Sequence record: PP488543.1
DNA from: Escherichia phage BP9
DNA length: 64,000 nt
Direction: 5' to 3' (one strand)
The translations under genes were made by a program, and so were the position numbers. The notes beneath the pieces are model-generated. The model ran no database searches and was not told where the DNA came from. It worked only from the letters and a program-made list of their open reading frames with translations. How positions within the stretch are numbered: the stretch's first letter is position 1; every line of letters starts with the position of its first letter. This document shows positions 8,001-46,682 of the stretch, one piece after another.

Positions 8001-8029
8001 TTGCTTTTGATGTATCTTTGTGGTAAAAT
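8001..8029 (+). promoter_or_regulatory. sigma70-type promoter (TTGCTT, 17 bp, TAAAAT with upstream TGG)
   Basis: -35 TTGCTT 8001-8006, 17-bp spacer, -10 TAAAAT 8024-8029; member of recurring TGGTAAAATAC family. Confidence 0.6.
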
Positions 8030-33054: not shown

Positions 33055-33741
33055 ATGGCAGAGATTAAGTCGGATGTTAACCACATCCACACTCTGCCAG
33101 ATTTTGTTCAGGGAGGTCTTGACTACCTACCTGGAGATTTTCTGGCTGAGAAGGTTAATTTAGTCACATTCTTAACCGTATACCTTAAAAGGTTGGAGGA
33201 TGTTGATAAGATGCTGGTAGGTTTGGCTGAAGGAAGATTGCTTAACAATGCCAGCGGAAGATACCTTGACGAAGTTGGTAATCAATTTGGTATTCTTAGG
33301 AATGGACTTTCAGATGCTGATTTTCGTGCCACACTAATTATTCAGCAGGCCGCAGCATCAAGGGGCGGGACTCGCGAAGATGTCATCTCCACCTTGCGAC
33401 AATTGTTCGGAAGAGACAATTTCGATACGTGGAAAGGAGACAACTTCAGGTTTGACATAAATATTAGAAAAACTTGCTTTGACATATTGCAGTCTATCGA
33501 TCAGATCTTAGATATGCTACCATTGCCTTGTCATTTGCGTCTTACAGAATCGCAAGGGCAAGCTTTTGGTTTTGAAGGGGACTCTACAGCTCTTGGCTTC
33601 GGATCGGTGTGGGAAGAAAACCAATTCGGAGTTGGTGGGCTGGCTACTTTGCTGTATGTTCCTGACGTAAGACCTGATTGGGACACCACAACCATTTATT
33701 GTGAAAGTATTACAGTAAACGCAACTAGACAGGAGGGTTAA
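33055..33741 (+). CDS. hypothetical baseplate protein (gpI-like position)
   Basis: 228 aa following J-like baseplate gene. Confidence 0.3.
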   Translation: MAEIKSDVNHIHTLPDFVQGGLDYLPGDFLAEKVNLVTFLTVYLKRLEDVDKMLVGLAEGRLLNNASGRYLDEVGNQFGILRNGLSDADFRATLIIQQAAASRGGTREDVISTLRQLFGRDNFDTWKGDNFRFDINIRKTCFDILQSIDQILDMLPLPCHLRLTESQGQAFGFEGDSTALGFGSVWEENQFGVGGLATLLYVPDVRPDWDTTTIYCESITVNATRQEG

Positions 33742-35813
33742 TGGCAACAGCTGTTTTTAAACCTTACCGTGATTACTCTACAATGGCTGCACAGTTTCAT
33801 TACCGAACAGTTCAGGATACTGCCGTTCCTGGTAGGGATTATAATCATGTTGAGGGCGATGTAACTATCCCAATTGGGGCAACCAGTATTGAAATCCCAG
33901 TGGAAATTGTTGACAAATTACCCAACAGGTTACCAAGAAGCTTCTTTATGGAGTTTTCATCAAAATCTCAAGGGGTGATGATTGGGACACAAAGGGCAAA
34001 ATGTACAATAGTTTCAGATGAGAATCTTGACAGGATATCTTGGGATACTGTTGAGGAGAGAATGTTTCACCCAAGATATTGGGTTACAACCACCCAGCAG
34101 ACTGAAAGTACCTGTATTGTTGCAGATGACAACTGTTGTATTAACCGTTTAGTGTCAAGAACATATGGGGGTATGGCTGGGTGCATTTGGGAAACAGTTG
34201 ACAAGTATGACCATTTCGGTATTGGGTTTGATGATCACTATGAGATGAGAAATACCAAGCTTTGGTTCAGAATGTCAATAACCAATGCCAGCAACTTCTC
34301 CACTCCTGAAAAGATGATTATGACTGTAGACCTTGTTGATGGCACAATCATCTATGTTCCTTTAGCTCAATATGCTGTCAGCATCTCAGAGGATAAGAAT
34401 GTTGCAGAAATTCATATTGATTTTGAGGACTGCGTCGGGATGGACCAGAACAACAACATGATGGGTGTTGATCCTCGGCAGGTGAGAAGGATTTTAATAC
34501 CGCTCATGCCTAAAGACTGGGTAAGTAATAGCACAGACCCGAGAACGGAAAATGTAGAGTGCGAGTTGCGCTTAGACCTGCTTCAGCCAGACACAGGTTG
34601 GAAAATGATGCAACTTAACAATATTCAGGTTAAAGAGCACGACGTTGGGATCTGCACTGCATATGACGATATGTGGAACGTATCCCCTTTAAGGGTGTTG
34701 AACAATATCAAGCGTCTGGGCTATACCGGAACCATAAACCATTATGTTGGTATGAGTCATTATTATGACTACACGTGGTCAGGAACCCAATGGTCTATAA
34801 ACAGAACAGGGGCGCTAAACGCTGCAGCTTATAAATGGCATGATGATTTTATGTACAATGCCAAACGACATAACTTCGACGTTATGCAGTCTGTAAGTTT
34901 TGAGCTTTACAGCGATGCCTGCCCGTTGGAATGGACCCAAAGAGACTGGAACGATAACTACGCTAAAACAGGGTATACACCTTGTAGCTACCTCCTGTCT
35001 CCAACCATTGAAGAGGGTATGAATTTCCTTACTGCAGTATTTAAGAATTTTGCATCAGCCGCTATGAGAAACAACCTGCCAGTGATTATGCAGGTTGGTG
35101 AACCGTGGTGGTGGTACAATACCGATACTCGTAGACCTTGTATTTATGATTACCCTACAAAACAGGCGTTTTATGATGAGACAGGCGAGTATGCATTAGA
35201 TATTGGGACTATTGACGATCCTAAAACTGGCGGTGTTTACGATAAGTATGTAGCATTTTGTCGTGGTAAGCTTGGCGCTCGTATTGCGGCTATTTCAAAG
35301 GCAATAAAGGCACACGCTGCATCAGCTCAGATGACAGCTCTGCTGTTTTTCCCAACCATTATGGAAACCGAGCTTACGCAAAAGCTTAACCTTGCTGACC
35401 AATATAAAAAGGAAGCAGGTGCTCTTGATTTCTTCTGCACCGAGTGCTACGATTGGGTGATGCAGGGAGGTATTGAAAAGGCAAAAGAGTCTGTAAACAT
35501 ACCTATCGTTAAGTTAGGTTGGCAACCGTCTGAAATACAATACCTTGCAGGGTTCGTTCCTAGCAAAGAGCTTGCTCCGGTATATGGCTACGACCCAACC
35601 AGGAATTACCAAGAATTCTTATGGAGATGTATCTGCGGAAACATGGCAACTATAGAGTATAGATACCCTGAGGTAAAACAGTATGTGTGGGCATACCCGC
35701 AAGTAATGTCTGACAGCATTACTGTTACCGCTAGAGATTCTACCGTGCTTCATATGGGGCAGGTTGCTCTGAAAGGGTATGTAGAGGATGTTGTCCCGCC
35801 AGACTTCTCATAA
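33741..35813 (+). CDS. large baseplate/fibre-associated protein with N-terminal Calx-beta-like segment
   Basis: 690 aa; GRDYNHVEGDVTIPIGATSIEIPVEIVD resembles Calx-beta motif; Trp-rich C-terminal domain. Confidence 0.3.
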   Translation: MATAVFKPYRDYSTMAAQFHYRTVQDTAVPGRDYNHVEGDVTIPIGATSIEIPVEIVDKLPNRLPRSFFMEFSSKSQGVMIGTQRAKCTIVSDENLDRISWDTVEERMFHPRYWVTTTQQTESTCIVADDNCCINRLVSRTYGGMAGCIWETVDKYDHFGIGFDDHYEMRNTKLWFRMSITNASNFSTPEKMIMTVDLVDGTIIYVPLAQYAVSISEDKNVAEIHIDFEDCVGMDQNNNMMGVDPRQVRRILIPLMPKDWVSNSTDPRTENVECELRLDLLQPDTGWKMMQLNNIQVKEHDVGICTAYDDMWNVSPLRVLNNIKRLGYTGTINHYVGMSHYYDYTWSGTQWSINRTGALNAAAYKWHDDFMYNAKRHNFDVMQSVSFELYSDACPLEWTQRDWNDNYAKTGYTPCSYLLSPTIEEGMNFLTAVFKNFASAAMRNNLPVIMQVGEPWWWYNTDTRRPCIYDYPTKQAFYDETGEYALDIGTIDDPKTGGVYDKYVAFCRGKLGARIAAISKAIKAHAASAQMTALLFFPTIMETELTQKLNLADQYKKEAGALDFFCTECYDWVMQGGIEKAKESVNIPIVKLGWQPSEIQYLAGFVPSKELAPVYGYDPTRNYQEFLWRCICGNMATIEYRYPEVKQYVWAYPQVMSDSITVTARDSTVLHMGQVALKGYVEDVVPPDFS

Positions 35814-39209: not shown

Positions 39210-40955
39210 ATGGCGCAAGACATGACAAGCTTCGAGCAGGCGGTAGATCAAGTAATTGTTGATTCTGAACGTTTGCACTTGATTGTCAACGGTAACGCTG
39301 TGGATGAAGTTGTCGTAGAGGATGGGACCACTATCCCTACGGTACGAAAAGCCATGCTTGACACCCTTTATTTTAAAACGCCACCAATCCCTTGGGCGTA
39401 TGGTGCATCCACAACAGTTTTTAACCAGTTGTATGAGTTTAAAGGGGATACAGGCACTCAGTGGTGGTACGCCCCAGCAGCATCAAAATCTAACCCAGTT
39501 AGGATGCCAGCAGATCCTTCACAATCTCCGAACTGGAGATTATATACAGATTCTGCAGTAATGGCAAAATACTACGCAAAACTTAACAGCCCAAGGTTCG
39601 AAGGTGATCCGAGAGCACCTACACCTCCAATGGACGATAAGTCCGAGTCTATAGCAAACACAGAGTTTGTTGTTGACTATGTGGATAGTATATTCAAAGC
39701 CATGGAGGGGATGAAAGTAACTGTAGGGTCTTTGGTAGTGAAAGGTCTTACAGAACTGGCTAACACCATAGTTGGTGGCACCCTTACCATACACGGGCCT
39801 GTTAATGGGGCTGATTCTACTGCACGCTTCAGGAACCTAATCCTTACTGCAAATACTTCTACACTAACTTTTGCGTGGAGCGATCCTAAGCATGCAGACT
39901 GGAGAAGCACAGAGCTGCAACCTCATGAAGTGGTCACCCACAGAGTTATAGCTGACACTATAACTTCTGGGAAACCAGTGGCTAATAACAACGATGTGCA
40001 TTTTGATGGTCTAGGTAATAACTTTTTTGACTACGTGTACATTCGTGGTAATGCCATGAAGGCAGCAACCGAACCGACATTGCAGGTTGATGGGACCACC
40101 AGGGTTAAGAACCTTGAGGTGACAGGCACCGTTACAGGGATAACCTACTCTGTGGATGGCACCATGATCTACCCTAGCTATATTGAAAGCACAGGGGATG
40201 CACTGATCAATGGGGATTTAGAGGTTGGCGGATCTATAGTCATTCGTGGCACAGCATCTGTTCAGAACATATCTTTAAATACTCTGAGGGTGAATGAGCG
40301 TGCCACTTTTGAAGGGGAAGGGCTTACTGCCAACAAAGGTGTGATTACCGAGCTGACAGCCACCACTCTAACTGCAACAACTGCAAACTCTGAAAACTGC
40401 AACGTTACCCGCAACTTGCAGGTAAATGGAGATGTTAGTTTAAACGCAGCAGGTACGGGTACCACCTCTGTTCACAACCTTGAAATATCTGGCACGGTGA
40501 CTGGGTGGCTGCCAGACTTCTCTAATGTCAACTTTGTCTGCAACGGCATTAACTCTAGTGGTAAGATAACCACCTCTCAAGAAATTGAGGCTGGTAAAAC
40601 TATTACTGCCCCTACTTTCCACGCAGGGAAGGTAGATTTTGATCTAGAGGAGGTTGACGCATCAGGTGGGACATGGACACCTAACGGGCAGGCCAGCATG
40701 TATGTTGTCCACGCGAAAGGGGATTTTACAATAGGCCAATGGCCTGGAACATCGGCTGAAGATAAACCTTACCCGTTTACTGCAATCATCTATGTCATTC
40801 AAGATGCTGTAGGCCACAACGTGACTTTGCACGATAAATATGCCATACTGTCGGCTACCCCTGTCATTAACAACAAAGCCAACAGCGTTACCTTGCTACA
40901 ATTGACATATTGTGGTGTTGGTGATATTGTGGATGTGGTTATTGCACAACGTTAA
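39210..40955 (+). CDS. tail fibre / tailspike-like protein
   Basis: 581 aa; repetitive TGTVTG-type beta-rich segments; SD AAGGAGA. Confidence 0.45.
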   Translation: MAQDMTSFEQAVDQVIVDSERLHLIVNGNAVDEVVVEDGTTIPTVRKAMLDTLYFKTPPIPWAYGASTTVFNQLYEFKGDTGTQWWYAPAASKSNPVRMPADPSQSPNWRLYTDSAVMAKYYAKLNSPRFEGDPRAPTPPMDDKSESIANTEFVVDYVDSIFKAMEGMKVTVGSLVVKGLTELANTIVGGTLTIHGPVNGADSTARFRNLILTANTSTLTFAWSDPKHADWRSTELQPHEVVTHRVIADTITSGKPVANNNDVHFDGLGNNFFDYVYIRGNAMKAATEPTLQVDGTTRVKNLEVTGTVTGITYSVDGTMIYPSYIESTGDALINGDLEVGGSIVIRGTASVQNISLNTLRVNERATFEGEGLTANKGVITELTATTLTATTANSENCNVTRNLQVNGDVSLNAAGTGTTSVHNLEISGTVTGWLPDFSNVNFVCNGINSSGKITTSQEIEAGKTITAPTFHAGKVDFDLEEVDASGGTWTPNGQASMYVVHAKGDFTIGQWPGTSAEDKPYPFTAIIYVIQDAVGHNVTLHDKYAILSATPVINNKANSVTLLQLTYCGVGDIVDVVIAQR

Positions 40956-40963
40956 TATATCTG

Positions 40964-40990
40964 ACCGCTCCTGACGGGGCGGTTTTCTTA
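40964..40990 (+). terminator. hairpin, probable terminator
   Basis: ACCGCTCC-TGAC-GGGGCGGT then TTTCTT. Confidence 0.45.
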
Positions 40991-41003
40991 TCTGGAGAAC
41001 ACA

Positions 41004-44000
41004 ATGCTTCCAATCCCTTTGCTAAAACTTGGTCGTCATTTCCTCGATAAGAGGGGTGGAGTTAAGGAACTTGCTGTTCTGTCATACCCAATAGACAACA
41101 GTGACGGTACAAGCACTACAGTAGCCTATGTAAATAGTTTAGCTATACTTTTTGACGACGGTCAACTTAATATTACAGGGTACAACAGGTTCGGGGAGTG
41201 TAGGACTGGGGATCTTGACACGATAAACTACCCTAATGAGGCTGCCTGGAACGTTGATCATGTGTGGAGAGCAGATCGTGCGTTTGTGATCCGAACTTTT
41301 GATAATCAGTTTTTCTACATCGGCTGTACTGCAGGGCTTATTGGGTCTGATGCTGCAGGCGGTAATGATGTTTGTGTAAGGGAGTGGACACCTCTTCCTG
41401 AACAAATCGTTAAAGGATTGCACCTTGACACCCACCCAGAGCGCCTTGTTGAGGTGATGGGTGGTATTAACAACACCGTCTGGGTTATGGCAGAGGCAGA
41501 AGGTACTGGCATTTTACACCTGTACGGATCTGGTAACAACACCTACGGATCTTTGCATGTGGATAAAAACCAGCATGCAACTCCTGTAAAGATTGGTGAA
41601 ACATCGGAAAATCCTGAAACAGGTCCTTGGAAAAACCCAAGCATCAACTGTGAGGTGCATGATAACTCTGTTATTTTCGGCGGTCCTAAAGGTTTCTGGA
41701 TTGCGGGATACGACTTTCTGAGAAACAACAGTAGAAACGACCTTGTTTGGCCTCCTGCTCAGATTACTCGTGACGATTTGAGAGGTATTCCTGCAGATGA
41801 GGAGTGGAAAGGGTTCATGTGTGGTCCGAACGGGGCAGTGGTTGTAACACAAAGAATGCACAGACCTGATGACCAGCAACTTGTTAACGTATTCTACGGG
41901 CAAAACATCTGGGGAGATGATACATGGCGTTCCTTAAATCTTACCTACACCCATGAAGTAATAATGGCGCGTGGGTACGGAACAAGCGGCATTTTCTTCA
42001 ATAATGGCACTAAGCAGTACCGTGGATTCTCTCGCAACTTATGTAATGATATTGGTGCACAGTCTGCAAACAATAGCCCTAGGGATAATTTTATCCACTA
42101 TCAAGCCCTTGCTACAGCTAAATATGTTGAGCAAAGACTGCCAGTCAGCTGGACAGAGAGTGTTTATTTCCAAGGCATTCACAGAGAAGGTTTTTTAGGA
42201 ACTTTTACCGTTGTTAATGGTAAACTTTGGTGGTCAGGTATCCCAAGGGGAAGTTTTGCAGGCTCTAATAACCTGTTTGGCGGCAGACTTAATAGCCAAG
42301 GGTTCACGGAGGTCCCTGAGAATTGGTATAAAAATGTCCCAGTAGATAGTTGGGGTGTTGATGATATTTTCGACGTTAACGGTGTTAGCAGCGTTAGCAA
42401 TATCTACATTGGCGACACGGTCAAGATGAAATTGAAGCCTCAGCCAGAGGGGGCTACGTTCATTATTGACAAGATTGAACTGGTAAATGCTGCAGGTACG
42501 GTTGTTACAGATGCAAATTACCAATTCTCTACCAACTGGAACCACGGCGGGGCCAACGAAGTTATTGTTACCCAGTATAACAGGAATGTTAACAGACGTG
42601 GACTGTACTCCGTAAAAATAACCTATCATGACAAACATGGCACAGGCAGGACCCACACAACAAGGACTTTGAACTGGAACACTATTGTCCCTGCGTATCC
42701 GTCTGATGGTAAATGGCATACTGTCGGTAGAAACAAACAGTTCCATGTTAATGACACTGTATACTTTGGACTAAATGCGGCCCAGCCTGCAGTAGAAGGG
42801 GATACATCGTATATGGTCAGACTCCATAGAATGGATGCTGGGTCAGTAACCTATGATGTTACCCAAGAGATTTATAATCAGCGACGAAATACCTATGATA
42901 ACTTGGTGCAGACACAGGCCCTATGGGAGTTCAACCCAAACGGAAGGGGTGGTAAAATGTTGCAGGTCAACGAACAAAACGGGACATCGTTGACTGTTCA
43001 CGAACACCCAAACCCTTGGCCTGATCCTGGAAAACCTAACTCTGGTGCTCGTACACTAAAAATTGTCAGCCATGACGTAGGATATTTCGGAATACGCTGG
43101 GAAGCCACAGTAAGATATGCCGACGGGACAACAAACAATATAGGGATTACCCTTGGTGGCACCAGTGAGAATAACTCGCTGAAAATTGCCTACACTCCTA
43201 GAGGTATTTCTATTGATAATATGGATGTTGTTCGCAACGGTTACGGGGATGTGAACATCAAAGTTACTCTTGGTGAACATCTTGGCGGGGAAAGGATCAT
43301 CATGTATGCCTTTGATCATGACCCTCGCACCAACGGAACATATGCAGACCAGGCGTGGAGCTACCTGATAAGCGCACCTGAGCCAAATACCAAAGAATTC
43401 TACTACGGTATGAAGCGAGATGTGTGCAAGAAAACAGGGACACATGACTGGATTGCGATCTGTGTTAAAGATGAACGTACCGCTTGGAACGAGCCTGTTA
43501 ACAGATGGTTCATAGGTATTCCCACCCGAAGTGATAAATACGTTGAAGAATACATTGTGTGCATGGGCGGCACCAACCTTAATATGTGTTGGAACGGGGA
43601 TGCAAACAACAAATACTCTGATTATGACTATATGCGGGACTATTCTTGCAATCAGTGGTTTAACCAACCTGGATATGCTGATCGACAGGCAAGAGTGAAT
43701 CCTGCAATCTTTACAGATACGCAGGTTTTCTTGACAAAACAGGCCAACGAGGTTCAGACCTTCAAGAACAAATACGACCCTAACAAGTGGTTTTATAACT
43801 GTTATGGCGCATTTTTCTGGGGTCCTGGGGAACTACCTGGCGGGGGATCTTGCTTCGAGTCTGCAACTTACGCCAGTGACTACATCATGGGGCAGGTTAA
43901 GAAGTATAAGATAATCCCCGGCCCTGAAACTTTGGGCAATGCCGTTGACCCTTATATCGTCATGACTGCGCTGAGATCAAACATGGATGGGACATCCATG

Positions 44001-46640
44001 TCTATGCAAATCCCAGTAACAAATGGGTACAAACGTGTTGTAATGATCATTAAGTGCGACCTAATAGGTAAACAAGTTCTTGCGGAAAACGGTACCTCCA
44101 CACATCCTTTTGAGATCGCTCTACACTATCAGTTTGCTGACTCGCCTTTTGCAGGTGATAAGAGAATATCTGATACAGATACACAGCGTTGTAAGAAGGT
44201 GTTGTTAGGTGCAGGTTGGTGGTGGTATGAATTTGATTTAACAGACAAATTCACCGACACGTCAAAAGTTGTAACGGGTCTTCGCCTAGACCTTGGCGAG
44301 AACATGCATAAAGCTGTTTGTGATGGCACCTATGGTGATCCTACAGTATATCTAAAGTATGTCTCTTTTGAGCATCCGGAAGATGTTGTTTACGGTCCAA
44401 AACTGAGATTGTTTGGCAGTTGGATTGCAAAAGACAGGGTAGGCATGGGTAAAAAGGTAAGAGGGTTCTTAGTTGATGCAGGAACAGAGGACATGCTGGT
44501 TAATGCAGTATGGCCTGAATTGCCCGGCACTCAGTGGGATAACTCTGCCAAATCTATAAACTGGTTCAACATTCACAGGGCTATGTGGACCACTAACTGC
44601 TACTTGTGGAGAGAGCTTAACGATCAGGCTTTTGGCTTCAGCAACGGCAGAAGGATGGCAATCATTTGCTGGACAACGCTGCAAAGGTGCTATGACCATG
44701 ACTACGAGATTGGCGGTAGGGCATGGAAAAATATCAGGGATAGAATCATAACCAATTTTGCAGACGACAACGGAGGTGGAGCACATAACTTCGGCACAAG
44801 TAGACTTATTCACTTGAATGGGTCATCTGCATATAAGAAAGAGGGTTATTCTGGGTCTATGATCGAGTGGGGTCTGGTGAAAGATGCTCGCGTATTGATG
44901 GGTCAACAACTTGCTGCTGCAATAGGACCTAACGCAGTGCAGTCTGTTAAACCAGCGTGGTTCGATATCCCAATATGGTCATCTGGAACACCAGGAACTG
45001 CGGCAATCAACCCTACCACTGGGGATCTGGAAATCTCTTGGGAGGACTTAAAGCAGGTTGGTGGCTGGGATAAGACTGGGTACCAAGTGCAATGGTGGAG
45101 ATCTGACGGATCGTTAGCGGCTGATGAGTTTGTTAAGGACAATTTCTACACTATGTCCTCTGCAAAAGCACAGCAATTGTTTGGTCAAGCAACTCCGTCA
45201 ACGATCACTATGTCTATGTGCTGTAAAGATACCAGGACTGGAGCTCTGGGGCCAAGGGTTGCTAAAGTTTTCTCAGGTATTAAGTGGAATCTTCCTGTTC
45301 AAAGTGTTTCATGGAAGCAAATAGGTGATAACAAGCTACTGGTTACTCCTGCCTGCCAGTTCAACGCAACTCTCAACGTTGACCCAGCTGTTGCAGCAAA
45401 CTCGGCTAGAGCTTCTGACTTCTCTGTGTCTAACACTGCCATGGCAGATGTGAGAAAGATTGACACACTGAATGCCAGAATTACCTGTAAAAACACTTAT
45501 GGCACATTCCAGATCATCAACAACTTTACAGATGTTGATTCTAAGGCAGTGAGGACAGCCAGCCAGACTATGCAGTTAGGCACTCTGGCATACTCTGCAC
45601 TGATCACTGAACAGTCTCCTACCCTTCAGGGTGGGGGTGTTGGTAAGTTGATTACAACTCCTGTATGGAAGCCAAATGAGTGGGTTGTATTCGATTTGAC
45701 TGTGGACTTCTCCAGTGATAATAACTGGACATGGGTAAGGAATTGTTTGTCACAGCTGATGGGTGGCCCAAACTCCATTAGTGATAGCCATGACTCTACT
45801 GACCCGAGTGTGTTCCAGGTTGGTAAAACTCACCCAGAAACTGGGGCACAGTTGCCTGACAGGAAGTATGCTTTGGTTTGCATCTCCAACGGCAAGGCAG
45901 ATGTAACCTTCTCAGGGACACACACATATAACGGCACTTACAACTTCTCTAAAAAGTACAGCCTCAAGGCAGGTAACATTGTAGACGAGGTTGGTGCGTT
46001 GTATAATCCGGGAAACGGGATAGGGATTGTAGGTGGTAAACTGCAGATGCAGGAACCTTCTATTACCCCTTCCAATGTGCCAGGAATCAGAAAGACTTGG
46101 GAAAGTAGTAATACCAACATTGCAACAGTGGATGCCACCACAGGATTGGTAACATTTAAAGCTACTGGGAATGTCACCATAAAGTTTGTAGTTACAGATG
46201 ATGCAGGGCGCAAAACGTCTTCAACATCTTTTACTGTCAAACAGATGGCACCGCAGTGGAGAATGTGGATAGGTACAGCAACAAACGGGGCATACCCTAA
46301 TCCGGCAGGTACTTCTGGTATGAAGACTTTCTCTACAAGCAAACCGATGGAGTACGGCAGCGGTCCTAAGGTAGGGCAGATGGTGTACTTTGGTGCGTAT
46401 ATTCCTGAAATTATAGGGCTTCCGAGAAGTCAGCTTCAGTTGCTGTTTGGGGCTGGTGTTGACGATCTTGCCACTTTCGGGTATAGCGACAACATCGAGG
46501 CTGCAAGGAGTTCAGGATGGGTAGGGTTCAGAATGGAGTCTGGAAAGGAAGGCAGGATTCTAGGGACAGCCTCTATAGGTGTTATGTTCCCTGGTGACCA
46601 GCAGTATCGTCTAGAAGCCTACGCAACCTTTTCTCGTTAA
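41004..46640 (+). CDS. giant virion-associated protein with RCC1-like repeats and Big_2-like domain
   Basis: 1878 aa; N-terminal GSGNNTYGSLHVDKN-type repeats; near C-terminus TWESSNTNIATVDATTGLVTFKATGNVTIKFVVTDDAG (Ig-like). Confidence 0.5.
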   Translation: MLPIPLLKLGRHFLDKRGGVKELAVLSYPIDNSDGTSTTVAYVNSLAILFDDGQLNITGYNRFGECRTGDLDTINYPNEAAWNVDHVWRADRAFVIRTFDNQFFYIGCTAGLIGSDAAGGNDVCVREWTPLPEQIVKGLHLDTHPERLVEVMGGINNTVWVMAEAEGTGILHLYGSGNNTYGSLHVDKNQHATPVKIGETSENPETGPWKNPSINCEVHDNSVIFGGPKGFWIAGYDFLRNNSRNDLVWPPAQITRDDLRGIPADEEWKGFMCGPNGAVVVTQRMHRPDDQQLVNVFYGQNIWGDDTWRSLNLTYTHEVIMARGYGTSGIFFNNGTKQYRGFSRNLCNDIGAQSANNSPRDNFIHYQALATAKYVEQRLPVSWTESVYFQGIHREGFLGTFTVVNGKLWWSGIPRGSFAGSNNLFGGRLNSQGFTEVPENWYKNVPVDSWGVDDIFDVNGVSSVSNIYIGDTVKMKLKPQPEGATFIIDKIELVNAAGTVVTDANYQFSTNWNHGGANEVIVTQYNRNVNRRGLYSVKITYHDKHGTGRTHTTRTLNWNTIVPAYPSDGKWHTVGRNKQFHVNDTVYFGLNAAQPAVEGDTSYMVRLHRMDAGSVTYDVTQEIYNQRRNTYDNLVQTQALWEFNPNGRGGKMLQVNEQNGTSLTVHEHPNPWPDPGKPNSGARTLKIVSHDVGYFGIRWEATVRYADGTTNNIGITLGGTSENNSLKIAYTPRGISIDNMDVVRNGYGDVNIKVTLGEHLGGERIIMYAFDHDPRTNGTYADQAWSYLISAPEPNTKEFYYGMKRDVCKKTGTHDWIAICVKDERTAWNEPVNRWFIGIPTRSDKYVEEYIVCMGGTNLNMCWNGDANNKYSDYDYMRDYSCNQWFNQPGYADRQARVNPAIFTDTQVFLTKQANEVQTFKNKYDPNKWFYNCYGAFFWGPGELPGGGSCFESATYASDYIMGQVKKYKIIPGPETLGNAVDPYIVMTALRSNMDGTSMSMQIPVTNGYKRVVMIIKCDLIGKQVLAENGTSTHPFEIALHYQFADSPFAGDKRISDTDTQRCKKVLLGAGWWWYEFDLTDKFTDTSKVVTGLRLDLGENMHKAVCDGTYGDPTVYLKYVSFEHPEDVVYGPKLRLFGSWIAKDRVGMGKKVRGFLVDAGTEDMLVNAVWPELPGTQWDNSAKSINWFNIHRAMWTTNCYLWRELNDQAFGFSNGRRMAIICWTTLQRCYDHDYEIGGRAWKNIRDRIITNFADDNGGGAHNFGTSRLIHLNGSSAYKKEGYSGSMIEWGLVKDARVLMGQQLAAAIGPNAVQSVKPAWFDIPIWSSGTPGTAAINPTTGDLEISWEDLKQVGGWDKTGYQVQWWRSDGSLAADEFVKDNFYTMSSAKAQQLFGQATPSTITMSMCCKDTRTGALGPRVAKVFSGIKWNLPVQSVSWKQIGDNKLLVTPACQFNATLNVDPAVAANSARASDFSVSNTAMADVRKIDTLNARITCKNTYGTFQIINNFTDVDSKAVRTASQTMQLGTLAYSALITEQSPTLQGGGVGKLITTPVWKPNEWVVFDLTVDFSSDNNWTWVRNCLSQLMGGPNSISDSHDSTDPSVFQVGKTHPETGAQLPDRKYALVCISNGKADVTFSGTHTYNGTYNFSKKYSLKAGNIVDEVGALYNPGNGIGIVGGKLQMQEPSITPSNVPGIRKTWESSNTNIATVDATTGLVTFKATGNVTIKFVVTDDAGRKTSSTSFTVKQMAPQWRMWIGTATNGAYPNPAGTSGMKTFSTSKPMEYGSGPKVGQMVYFGAYIPEIIGLPRSQLQLLFGAGVDDLATFGYSDNIEAARSSGWVGFRMESGKEGRILGTASIGVMFPGDQQYRLEAYATFSR

Positions 46641-46650
46641 CAAGGGGTAA

Positions 46651-46682
46651 ATAAAAAGGGGCCGTTTGGCCCCTTTCTTTTT
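46651..46682. terminator. bidirectional intrinsic terminator between convergent operons
   Basis: A-run, GGGGCC-GTTT-GGCCCC, T-run. Confidence 0.85.

What the first reader, a model, noticed from the sequence alone, without database searches (positions are those of the whole stretch)
41004..46640. 1878-aa giant protein with RCC1-like repeats and an Ig-like domain at the end of the tail cluster
The N-terminal third contains repeated GxGxN..YG..LG-type motifs reminiscent of RCC1 beta-propeller blades, and a Big_2-like Ig domain lies near the C-terminus. It has no fibre N-terminal anchor domain. It sits in its own transcription unit between a terminator-like hairpin and the bidirectional terminator. 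A protein of this size and architecture is atypical for a tail fibre.
Basis: partly seen in the sequence, partly recalled or inferred. Interest (0 to 1): 0.7.

Follow-up and report, generated by a model that had tools for sequence, protein, structure and literature searches.

The report
Giant accessory fibre protein of rV5-like phage
This is the already catalogued 208-kDa "gp27" protein of rV5-like E. coli phages: a real, strongly conserved virion-associated protein that phages can do without in the laboratory, with an RCC1-type propeller at the front, a long stretch unlike anything known, and antibody-like domains at the end; it most likely acts as an extra adhesin, but its function has never been shown.

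Summary
The 1878-aa ORF is real (41004..46640, +). The window is a Vequintavirus (rV5-like myophage). The gene is the ortholog of rV5 gp27 and BASEL bas49_0041/bas54_0041, annotated "lateral tail fiber protein with intimin domain" (PHROG 15684).

Published data on orthologs show weak detection in rV5 virions (3 peptides) and tolerance of transposon disruption on E. coli K-12.

The RCC1 idea holds only through profiles. Pfam is sub-threshold on the protein itself. A profile of residues 1-450 plus syntenic homologs hits only RCC1-like propellers in the PDB (UVR8, E = 9e-15). Big_2 at 1686-1733 passes Pfam's threshold.

"No anchor" is not supported. Residues 1-445 are the best-conserved part. Their invariant MxPIP start and propeller recur in the last tail-cluster gene of other genera.

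"Own transcription unit" is not supported. Both hairpins are rV5's published t028 and t026/t027, and no promoter follows the first.

Residues 201-1400 have no detectable relatives outside the family among 1.84 billion proteins. AlphaFold models are mostly low-confidence; the confident parts are beta-sandwich domains. dN/dS is 0.04-0.06.

Best reading: a dispensable accessory adhesin docked by its N-terminus. Location, partner and ligand are unknown.

The parts
39210..40955 (+). Upstream fibre gene (rV5 gp28 family, 581 aa). Its C-terminal 105-aa 'head' (40638-40952) is conserved across genera. It is a possible but unproven docking partner.
   Evidence: phrog_4549 tail fiber. The head is 51% identical in ESCO5 gp227 and is found in 384 phage records, including phi92 gp151 and phiTE_241. 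It also occurs without a downstream partner gene in KpS8.
40963..40984 (+). Terminator-like hairpin followed by a T-run. It equals rV5 t028 and is probably a leaky attenuator ahead of the giant gene.
   Evidence: rV5 Table S4.
40994..40997 (+). Shine-Dalgarno GGAG, 6 nt before the ATG.
   Evidence: Read directly from the sequence.
41004..46640 (+). Giant ORF, 1878 aa plus stop. It is the ortholog of rV5 gp27, bas49_0041 and bas54_0041 (PHROG 15684).
   Evidence: dN/dS 0.04-0.06.
41004..42338 (+). aa 1-445: invariant MxPIP N-terminus plus an RCC1-like (RLD) propeller domain. It is the best-conserved part and the putative virion-docking module.
   Evidence: The AF2 model is low-confidence here.
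42351..43493 (+). aa 450-830: beta-rich region. Beta-sandwich-like domains are predicted at about 480-560 and 738-828. It is mosaic between lineages.
   Evidence: pLDDT 50-66; identity profile; no Pfam hit.
43491..45008 (+). aa 830-1335: conserved orphan core. Helical stretches (about 838-960 and 1126-1330, low confidence) flank a confidently predicted beta-sandwich. It contains many invariant W, E, D, H and R residues, for example E1162-D1163 and N1186-W-F-N-x-H-R-A-M-W1195.
   Evidence: Invariant columns. No Pfam or PDB sequence hit, even with a profile. No relatives in 1.84e9 proteins.
43905..44372 (+). aa 968-1123: beta-sandwich domain, the best-predicted part of the core.
   Evidence: pLDDT 70-87 in both independent models.
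44997..45287 (+). aa 1332-1428: FN3-like beta-sandwich.
   Evidence: pLDDT 54-77; Pfam fn3 only E = 0.14.
45288..45764 (+). aa 1429-1587: the most variable segment between lineages.
   Evidence: 12-18% identity to the distant family members; mostly low pLDDT.
45765..46277 (+). aa 1588-1758: two Ig-like domains. The second is Big_2 (aa 1686-1733, nt 46059-46202).
   Evidence: Pfam Big_2 above threshold; pLDDT 72-91; Foldseek matches to Ig-domain chains.
46305..46637 (+). aa 1768-1878: C-terminal beta domain. It occurs as two allele groups within Vequintavirus.
   Evidence: pLDDT 50-74; allele groups of 95-99% and about 79% identity. The C-terminal 293 aa superpose on BFVD's model of a V18 fragment (TM 0.92).
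46655..46676 (.). Bidirectional terminator at the convergence of the tail-fibre operon and the leftward genes. It equals rV5 t026/t027.
   Evidence: rV5 Table S4; the GC skew changes sign here.

Best explanation
The gene encodes a non-essential accessory adhesin ('extra fibre') carried on the virion of an rV5-like myophage.

Shown:
- It is the last gene of the tail-fibre operon and is intact and under strong purifying selection.
- Its ortholog was detected, at low coverage, in purified rV5 virions.
- Its ortholog tolerates transposon disruption during growth on E. coli K-12.
- Its N-terminal 445 aa are an RCC1-type domain with an invariant MxPIP start.
- That module recurs in the same genomic position in other genera, fused to different C-terminal parts.

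Inferred:
- The MxPIP peptide plus propeller is the module that docks the protein onto a conserved virion component. One candidate is the conserved C-terminal head of the fibre encoded just upstream.
- The remaining roughly 1,400 aa form an arm of beta-sandwich, FN3 and Ig-like domains around a conserved orphan core.
- The lineage-variable C-terminal Ig-like and terminal domains contact a surface glycan or another ligand that matters on some natural hosts or habitats but not on K-12.
- The leaky hairpin in front of the gene keeps its copy number below that of the upstream fibre.
For: Identity and context:
- The window is a Vequintavirus.
- The gene ends the tail-fibre cluster.

Virion presence and dispensability:
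- rV5 gp27 was found with 3 peptides, 9 spectra and 3.1% coverage (PMC3606486 Table S5).
- bas54_0041 tolerates disruptive insertions. It is the ortholog.

Selection:
- dN/dS is 0.044-0.061 over the whole gene.

N-terminal module:
- Conservation is highest at aa 1-450 and lowest at aa 1450-1600.
- The module is shared with ESCO5 gp226, PVP-SE1 gp40 and GAP31_232 at the same position.
- phi92 gp152 keeps the MYPIP start fused directly to Big_2 domains.
- The RCC1 nature is supported.
- RCC1-like proteins of the same PHROG (4219) are abundant in the W70 virion proteome.

Arm architecture:
- The arm resembles a chain of Ig-like domains.

Possible partner:
- The upstream fibre head is conserved across genera.
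- RBPseg reports unassigned density attached to the C-terminal head of a Vequintavirinae fibre class.

Expression:
- A hairpin precedes the gene and no promoter follows it.
Against: - No experiment places the protein on the particle. Three peptides from a 208-kDa protein could be carry-over.
- Cryo-EM of Bas49 and Bas54 resolved only three of nine annotated fibres and did not assign this protein.
- No ligand is known. Host-specific conditional essentiality was reported for 'some' fibre genes without naming this one.
- The docking-partner idea is weak. The conserved head also occurs in KpS8, where no downstream gene follows, and in GAP32 without an adjacent RCC1 gene. I could not verify which gene RBPseg's TC8 fibre is.
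- AF2 confidence is low for the propeller and for two helical stretches. Blade number, oligomeric state and overall shape are therefore unknown.
- High N-terminal conservation could instead reflect binding to a conserved host receptor.
Confidence: 0.55

Rival explanations
1. The polarity is reversed. The RCC1-like propeller is the ligand-binding head, recognising a conserved host structure, and the protein is attached to the particle through another part.
For: Beta-propellers serve as receptor-binding or lectin modules in other systems (general knowledge). High N-terminal conservation would fit a conserved receptor: all tested Vequintavirinae depend on the same conserved glycan and LPS core glucose.
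Against: The invariant extreme N-terminus (M1, P3, I4, P5) is retained in phi92 gp152, which has no propeller at all. That points to the N-terminal peptide, not the propeller face, as the shared function. Across genera the C-terminal parts are swapped while the N-terminus is kept, as in fibres anchored by the N-terminus. The gene is dispensable on K-12, where the conserved receptors are used.
Confidence: 0.15
2. The conserved orphan core (aa 830-1335) is an enzyme acting on a surface polysaccharide. The protein would then be a depolymerase or modifier rather than, or as well as, an adhesin.
For: The core has dense invariant acidic, aromatic, His and Arg positions, for example E1162-D1163 and NWFNxHRAMW at 1186-1195. 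It is under strong purifying selection. Neighbouring fibres in this phage group carry glycan-active domains.
Against: No Pfam, NCBIfam or PDB sequence similarity was found, even with a family profile. No relatives exist outside the family. The helical parts of the model are low-confidence, so no catalytic fold can be named.
Confidence: 0.2
3. It is a head or neck decoration protein, or an internal DNA-condensing protein, rather than a tail appendage.
For: The C-terminal 290 aa match phrog_215 'structural protein with Ig domain', which is filed under head and packaging. Foldseek also lists Hoc and Ig-bearing head proteins. The authors of the W70 paper speculated that RCC1-like virion proteins help to package DNA.
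Against: The gene lies at the end of the tail-fibre operon, and that synteny is kept across genera. The PHROG category and the Hoc matches reflect only the promiscuous Ig fold. 'Chromosome condensation' is a name inherited from eukaryotic RCC1, not evidence of DNA binding.
Confidence: 0.07
4. It is not a virion protein at all. It would be a late-expressed protein that acts in the infected cell or lysate and contaminated the rV5 preparation.
For: Only 3 peptides and 3.1% coverage were found in rV5. It was not seen in cryo-EM. It is dispensable. The ORF is split in several deposited genomes.
Against: It is co-transcribed with fibre genes. It is built from extracellular-type domains (Ig, FN3, beta-sandwich). 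Shorter RCC1-like proteins of the same PHROG (4219) are clearly detected in W70 virions.
Confidence: 0.05

Closest known systems
rV5 gp27 and BASEL 'lateral tail fiber protein with intimin domain' (bas49_0041, bas54_0041; PHROG 15684)
   Same: Ortholog. It has the same length (1875-1878 aa) and 91-95% identity, and the profile matches over its full length. Position and flanking terminators are the same.
   Different: Nothing essential differs; this is another allele. The published annotations mention only the Ig/intimin-like domain, not the RCC1-like N-terminus.
phrog_11922 'tail protein': ESCO5 gp226 (890 aa), PVP-SE1 gp40 (604 aa), GAP31_232. Also phi92 gp152 (202 aa), which was not scanned against PHROGs here.
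   Same: Each is the last gene of the tail-fibre cluster and starts with MxPIP. ESCO5 gp226, PVP-SE1 gp40 and GAP31_232 also have the RCC1-like propeller (30-41% identity over about 200 aa, alignable over the whole domain). ESCO5 gp226, PVP-SE1 gp40 and phi92 gp152 carry Big_2 domains.
   Different: They are two to nine times shorter and lack the roughly 1,100-aa middle part. phi92 gp152 also lacks the propeller. ESCO5 gp226 has a different C-terminal part.
RCC1-like virion proteins of Vequintavirinae and Rak2-like jumbo phages (phrog_4219; W70_237-239; GAP32_001)
   Same: They share the RCC1-like domain family: the giant matches phrog_4219 at 9e-8, and its short homologs match at 5.5e-34 (ESCO5 gp226) and 1.5e-40 (PVP-SE1 gp40). 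They were found in virions by mass spectrometry. Their function is also unknown.
   Different: They are single-domain proteins of about 40 kDa, often in several copies, and are encoded elsewhere in the genome.
Eukaryotic RCC1-like domains (RCC1, UVR8, HERC1/2, RPGR)
   Same: They share the repeat signature. All significant PDB profile hits belong to this family.
   Different: Only two or three blades of the phage domain keep a recognisable signature. The seven-bladed geometry is not verified. There is no reason to expect guanine-nucleotide exchange or chromatin functions.
Ig-like domains displayed on phage structural proteins (Hoc, lambda gpV C-terminus; Fraser et al. 2006, cited)
   Same: Big_2/Ig-like domains on a dispensable virion-associated protein. 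Weak accessory binding to surface carbohydrates is the function proposed for this class (established proposal, not tested here).
   Different: Here the Ig domains are a small part of a 208-kDa protein that has its own docking module and a large conserved core.
Classical trimeric tail fibres and tailspikes
   Same: The operon position is the same, and so is the gradient from a conserved N-terminus to a variable C-terminus.
   Different: No beta-helix, coiled-coil, collagen, known anchor or chaperone domain is detected. The predicted domains are separate globular beta-sandwiches.
Intimin/invasin adhesins
   Same: They share one Big_2 domain (PDB intimin E = 0.005).
   Different: The NCBIfam intimin model scores 22 bits against a cut-off of 1400. 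There is no beta-barrel anchor, LysM domain or lectin-like tip. It is not a family member.

Membership tests
rV5 gp27 family (PHROG 15684) | Full-length similarity to the family profile and the same genomic position | tested here: met
   phrog_15684 matches 1-1878 of 1878 with 4462 bits. Identity to deposited orthologs is 91-95%. Synteny is the same.
RCC1-like domain (RLD) superfamily | Pfam RCC1, RCC1_2 or WD40_RLD above the curated threshold on this protein | tested here: not met
   WD40_RLD scores 21.6 bits against 150, and RCC1_2 scores 13.8 against 22.
RCC1-like domain (RLD) superfamily | Profile-level sequence similarity to solved RLD propellers, and RCC1 hits in orthologous domains | tested here: met
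   The A4 profile hits UVR8 at 9e-15, HERC1 at 1.7e-11, RPGR at 1.3e-8, plus HERC2 and RCC2; no other fold scores E < 0.1. Pfam RCC1 is above threshold in ESCO5 gp226 and PVP-SE1 gp40. Precomputed Pfam hits are PF00415 in six and PF25390 in seven of the short homologs.
RCC1-like domain (RLD) superfamily | Seven-bladed beta-propeller geometry | tested here: inconclusive
   AF2 pLDDT is below 50 over most of aa 146-434. Internal repeats are not significant in the giant protein.
Bacterial Ig-like domain group 2 (Big_2) | Pfam PF02368 above the gathering score | tested here: met
   31.7 bits against 22.8 at aa 1686-1733. pLDDT is 72-91.
Classical trimeric tail fibre or tailspike | Recognisable fibre modules: known N-terminal anchor, beta-helix, coiled coil or collagen, or C-terminal chaperone (S74) | tested here: not met
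   No such Pfam or NCBIfam hit at E <= 1-10. Fold matches are to chains of Ig-like domains.
Classical trimeric tail fibre or tailspike | Homotrimeric assembly | not testable with these tools
   Only monomer prediction was available.
Virion structural protein | Detected in purified particles | not testable with these tools
   Literature only, for the rV5 ortholog: 3 peptides and 3.1% coverage. It was not assigned in Bas49/Bas54 cryo-EM.
Intimin/invasin | Match to the family model over its length | tested here: not met
   NF033627 scores 22.1 bits against a cut-off of 1400, covering only 39 residues.
Glycan-active enzyme (any known family) | Similarity of the core (aa 830-1335) to a known catalytic family | tested here: not met
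   No hit in Pfam or PDB with single sequences or the A5 profile. No relatives outside the family.

The most novel reading that the evidence does not exclude
The MxPIP peptide plus RCC1-like propeller is a previously undescribed docking module. It would mount non-classical, adhesin-like appendages, possibly monomeric, on the tip of the gp28-type fibre of rV5-like phages, giving a branched fibre. In the same reading, the sequence-orphan core (aa 830-1335) is a new fold that binds or cleaves a surface glycan needed only on particular natural hosts.
Probability: 0.15. Interest if true: 0.65.

Novelty: already known. Interest (0 to 1): 0.35.

Why it matters
rV5-like phages are common in sewage and gut isolations, are used in phage products, and have a broad host range credited to a multi-fibre "Swiss army knife". 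Which gene makes which appendage is still unsettled. Cryo-EM has placed only three of nine annotated fibres.

This protein is the largest product of the fibre cluster. It costs the phage 5.6 kb, about 4% of the genome, and is kept under strong purifying selection, yet it is dispensable on K-12. About 1,200 of its residues have no detectable relatives anywhere else.

The N-terminal third of the fibre-cluster's largest protein can now be read as a conserved RCC1-type module shared across genera. That gives a concrete, testable handle: where it docks and what the rest binds. It also links the protein to the unexplained RCC1-like proteins seen in other phage virion proteomes. The gain is incremental unless the docking or enzymatic hypotheses are confirmed.

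Tried and rejected
- Direct Pfam and NCBIfam scans of the whole protein and of five pieces gave only Big_2 above threshold.
- A PDB sequence search with the whole protein gave only Ig-domain hits.
- A word-indexed homolog search gave 15 family members. Repeats with the N-terminus alone and with the N-terminal profile added few sequences, so the alignments stayed shallow.
- An exhaustive phmmer search of aa 201-1400 against 1.84e9 representatives found nothing outside the family.
- Two AlphaFold2 jobs (aa 1-1200 and aa 679-1878) gave mean pLDDT of 43.5 and 54.3. The propeller and the helical parts of the core are not interpretable.
- Foldseek on these models returned only generic Ig-chain matches. 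The top hit for the N-terminal model, a phage 812 baseplate chain (probability 0.54), was disregarded because the model is poor.
- A family profile of the core against PDB and Pfam found nothing.
- I considered an alginate-lyase or heparinase-like toroid for the helical core, based on a remembered 'N..H' motif. I dropped it for lack of any supporting result.
- Strict coupling between the upstream fibre's C-terminal head and the downstream MxPIP protein was rejected as a rule. KpS8 has the head but no downstream gene, and GAP32 has no adjacent RCC1 gene.
- phiTE_242 is only a marginal relative (hhalign probability 45%; no Pfam hit).
- I looked for a promoter for the gene. The sigma-70-like count equals the shuffled expectation. 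The nearest late-promoter-like motif (one mismatch) lies inside the upstream ORF at 40559.
- The RBPseg supplement (to identify the TC8 gene) and the PVP-SE1 proteomics paper were not available.
Full report
**What is there**

The window holds a single ORF at 41004..46640 on the + strand, with an ATG start and 1878 aa. GGAG lies 6 nt upstream of the ATG. The ORF closes a long rightward block of tail and fibre genes. Leftward genes begin just beyond it, and the GC skew changes sign there.

Megablast places the window in Vequintavirus, the rV5-like E. coli myophages. In total 120 phage records match the gene, 107 of them over at least 80% of its length, at 80-94.4% nucleotide identity. PHROG 15684 ('unknown function') matches residues 1-1878 of 1878.

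In the BASEL genomes the ortholog is bas49_0041 or bas54_0041, annotated 'lateral tail fiber protein with intimin domain'. In rV5 it is gp27: 1878 aa, 208 kDa, 'conserved hypothetical protein, Big_2'.

Nei-Gojobori dN/dS against two orthologs is 0.044 and 0.060, and it is low in every 100-codon window where dS could be estimated. This is a real, selected protein.

**What is already published about it**

- rV5 whole-virion proteomics found gp27 with 3 peptides, 9 spectra and 3.1% coverage.
[quoted passage not shown] It also states that the assignment of genes to fibres is unclear.
- The HIDEN-SEQ preprint reports that bas54_0041 tolerates disruptive transposon insertions. It is therefore dispensable for infective virions and for growth on K-12. 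Some fibre genes become conditionally essential on clinical isolates, but the text does not say which. I verified that bas54_0041 is the ortholog.
- Cryo-EM of Bas49 and Bas54 found density for only three of nine annotated fibres.
- The rV5 paper already lists the two hairpins as terminators: t028 upstream of gp27, and t026/t027 (bidirectional) downstream. It predicts no promoter for gp27.

**The RCC1 claim**

On the protein itself the evidence is sub-threshold. The whole protein gives no RCC1 hit. The isolated N-terminal 450 aa give WD40_RLD E = 1.5e-4 (21.6 bits, cut-off 150) and RCC1_2 E = 0.055. Self-comparison detects no significant internal repeats.

The claim is rescued by homology.

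- tblastn shows that the first roughly 200 aa are shared at 30-41% identity with the last gene of the fibre cluster in Phapecoctavirus and Seunavirus. The examples are ESCO5 gp226 (890 aa), PVP-SE1 gp40 (604 aa) and GAP31_232.
- These domains align over all of about 1-440.
- Of these shorter proteins, ESCO5 gp226 and PVP-SE1 gp40 pass Pfam's RCC1 threshold (24.2 and 36.1 bits against 21.7) and carry Big_2 domains. Database homologs (Seunavirus-type 'tail proteins', 570-609 aa) carry precomputed RCC1/RLD and Big_2 hits.
- A profile of the seven N-terminal domains, searched against all PDB sequences, returns only RCC1-like propellers. These are UVR8 8.9e-15, HERC1 1.7e-11, RPGR 1.3e-8, HERC2 7.7e-8, RCC2 2.1e-5 and ATS1.
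- The giant's N-terminus also matches phrog_4219 'regulator of chromosome condensation' at 9e-8. That PHROG contains W70_237-239, proteins of about 40 kDa detected abundantly in the W70 virion. Similar proteins occur in Rak2-like jumbo phages.

The N-terminal quarter (about aa 20-445) is therefore RCC1-like. I could not confirm seven blades, because the AlphaFold model is low-confidence there.

**The rest of the protein**

Big_2 at aa 1686-1733 is above threshold.

Residues 201-1400 have no relative outside the family among 1.84 billion representative proteins. The indexed search found only 15 family members. In those, aa 1-1430 are conserved and the last roughly 450 aa diverge, with mosaic blocks at about 450-750, 950-1150 and 1450-1600.

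A family profile of aa 830-1335 hits nothing in PDB or Pfam. This core nevertheless carries many invariant W, E, D, H and R positions.

Two AlphaFold2 runs on the shallow alignments gave mean pLDDT of 43.5 and 54.3. The confident parts are:

| Residues | Predicted element | pLDDT |
|---|---|---|
| 968-1123 | beta-sandwich (both models) | 70-87 |
| 1332-1428 | FN3-like domain | 54-77 |
| 1588-1758 | two Ig-like domains | 72-91 |
| 1768-1878 | C-terminal beta domain | 50-74 |

Two helical stretches (838-960 and 1126-1330) are not trustworthy.

Foldseek matches are to chains of Ig-like domains: NUP210, cadherins, the S-layer proteins Sap, SbsB and EA1, Hoc, and Ig-bearing phage proteins including PVP-SE1 gp40. 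Nothing resembles a beta-helical or coiled-coil fibre shaft.

**Anchor and transcription claims**

The N-terminus is the most conserved part. M1, P3, I4 and P5 are invariant across genera.

phi92 gp152 sits in the same position and starts MYPIPLF, but runs straight into two Big_2 domains with no propeller. An N-terminal module kept across genera, with C-terminal parts exchanged, is the signature of a docking module. It is not, however, a known anchor family.

'Own transcription unit' is also not supported. The 20 nt between the hairpin and the ATG hold only an RBS. Sigma-70-like sites are no more frequent than in shuffles (16 against 15.0). The nearest late-promoter-like motif lies at 40559, inside the upstream ORF, with one mismatch. 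Read-through of a leaky terminator is the simpler reading, and it would fit a low copy number.

**A possible partner**

The upstream fibre (rV5 gp28 family) shares only its C-terminal 105-aa head with ESCO5 gp227, at 51% identity. That head occurs in 384 phage records, including phi92 gp151, phiTE_241 and the 'long tail fiber proximal subunit' of Rak2-like phages.

[quoted passage not shown] I could not verify that this class is the gp28 homolog.

Against a strict pairing, KpS8 has the head but no downstream gene, and GAP32 has no adjacent RCC1 gene. I keep this only as one candidate.

**Verdict**

The object is an already known, though functionally uncharacterised, protein family.

The most likely function is a dispensable accessory adhesin docked by its N-terminal MxPIP/RCC1-like module (confidence 0.55). 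Rival readings are:

- reversed polarity (0.15);
- an enzymatic core, which is compatible with the main reading (0.2);
- a head, neck or DNA-condensing role (0.07);
- not a virion protein (0.05).

What this analysis adds to the annotations and papers I could search:

- the RCC1-like identity of the N-terminus and its cross-genus conservation;
- the domain map;
- the finding that about 1,200 residues are sequence orphans.

Noticed in passing
Public records matching window 41004-46640: Fifteen to twenty GenBank records named 'Campylobacter phage' (MG0656xx, host C. jejuni) carry this rV5-type gene at about 79-97% protein identity. They look like E. coli Vequintaviruses with a doubtful host label.
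   Followed up: no
Orthologs of window 41004-46640 in phages ime, V18, APECc02, naswa, ECP26 and YP-6: The giant ORF is annotated as two or three separate pieces in several deposited genomes, for example 829 + 1055 aa in ime and 293 + 673 + 141 aa in V18. This is either sequencing error or real disruption. Real disruption would fit dispensability in laboratory propagation.
   Followed up: no
Whole window; exact copies at 8021, 11541, 25695 and 31511: The rV5 late-promoter core TGGTAAAATA (one mismatch allowed) occurs 21 times against 5.5 expected, 19 of them on the + strand. The exact copies sit ahead of structural genes. None lies between the hairpin and the giant gene.
   Followed up: partly
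Window 40638-40952 (C-terminus of the 581-aa fibre): A 105-aa C-terminal head domain is shared by fibre proteins in 384 phage records across Vequintavirinae, Stephanstirmvirinae (phi92 gp151) and Rak2-like jumbo phages. The rest of those proteins differs.
   Followed up: partly
P0018: A 318-aa 'hypothetical protein, partial [Eggerthella lenta]' from a 955-bp contig is 100% identical to part of the N-terminus of this phage protein. This is probably phage contamination in that assembly.
   Followed up: no
P0001 and Seunavirus-type homologs: A newer Pfam family, PF26918, is precomputed on both the giant protein's 95% relative and the short RCC1-Big_2 tail proteins. It is absent from the Pfam copy available here, so I could not tell which region it covers.
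   Followed up: no
L010:6306-7547 (phiTE_242): The gene just downstream of the phiTE long tail fibre (phiTE_241) starts MIPF and has RCC1-like Gly motifs. It shows only marginal similarity to the N-terminal profile (hhalign probability 45%, E = 2e-4) and has no Pfam hit.
   Followed up: partly
Window 33741-35813: The 690-aa fibre protein's counterpart in a related contig carries NCTSP_N and TIM-barrel_NCTSP domains. It corresponds to the N4-like glycan deacetylase fibre thought to bind the conserved ECA/NGR glycan.
   Followed up: no
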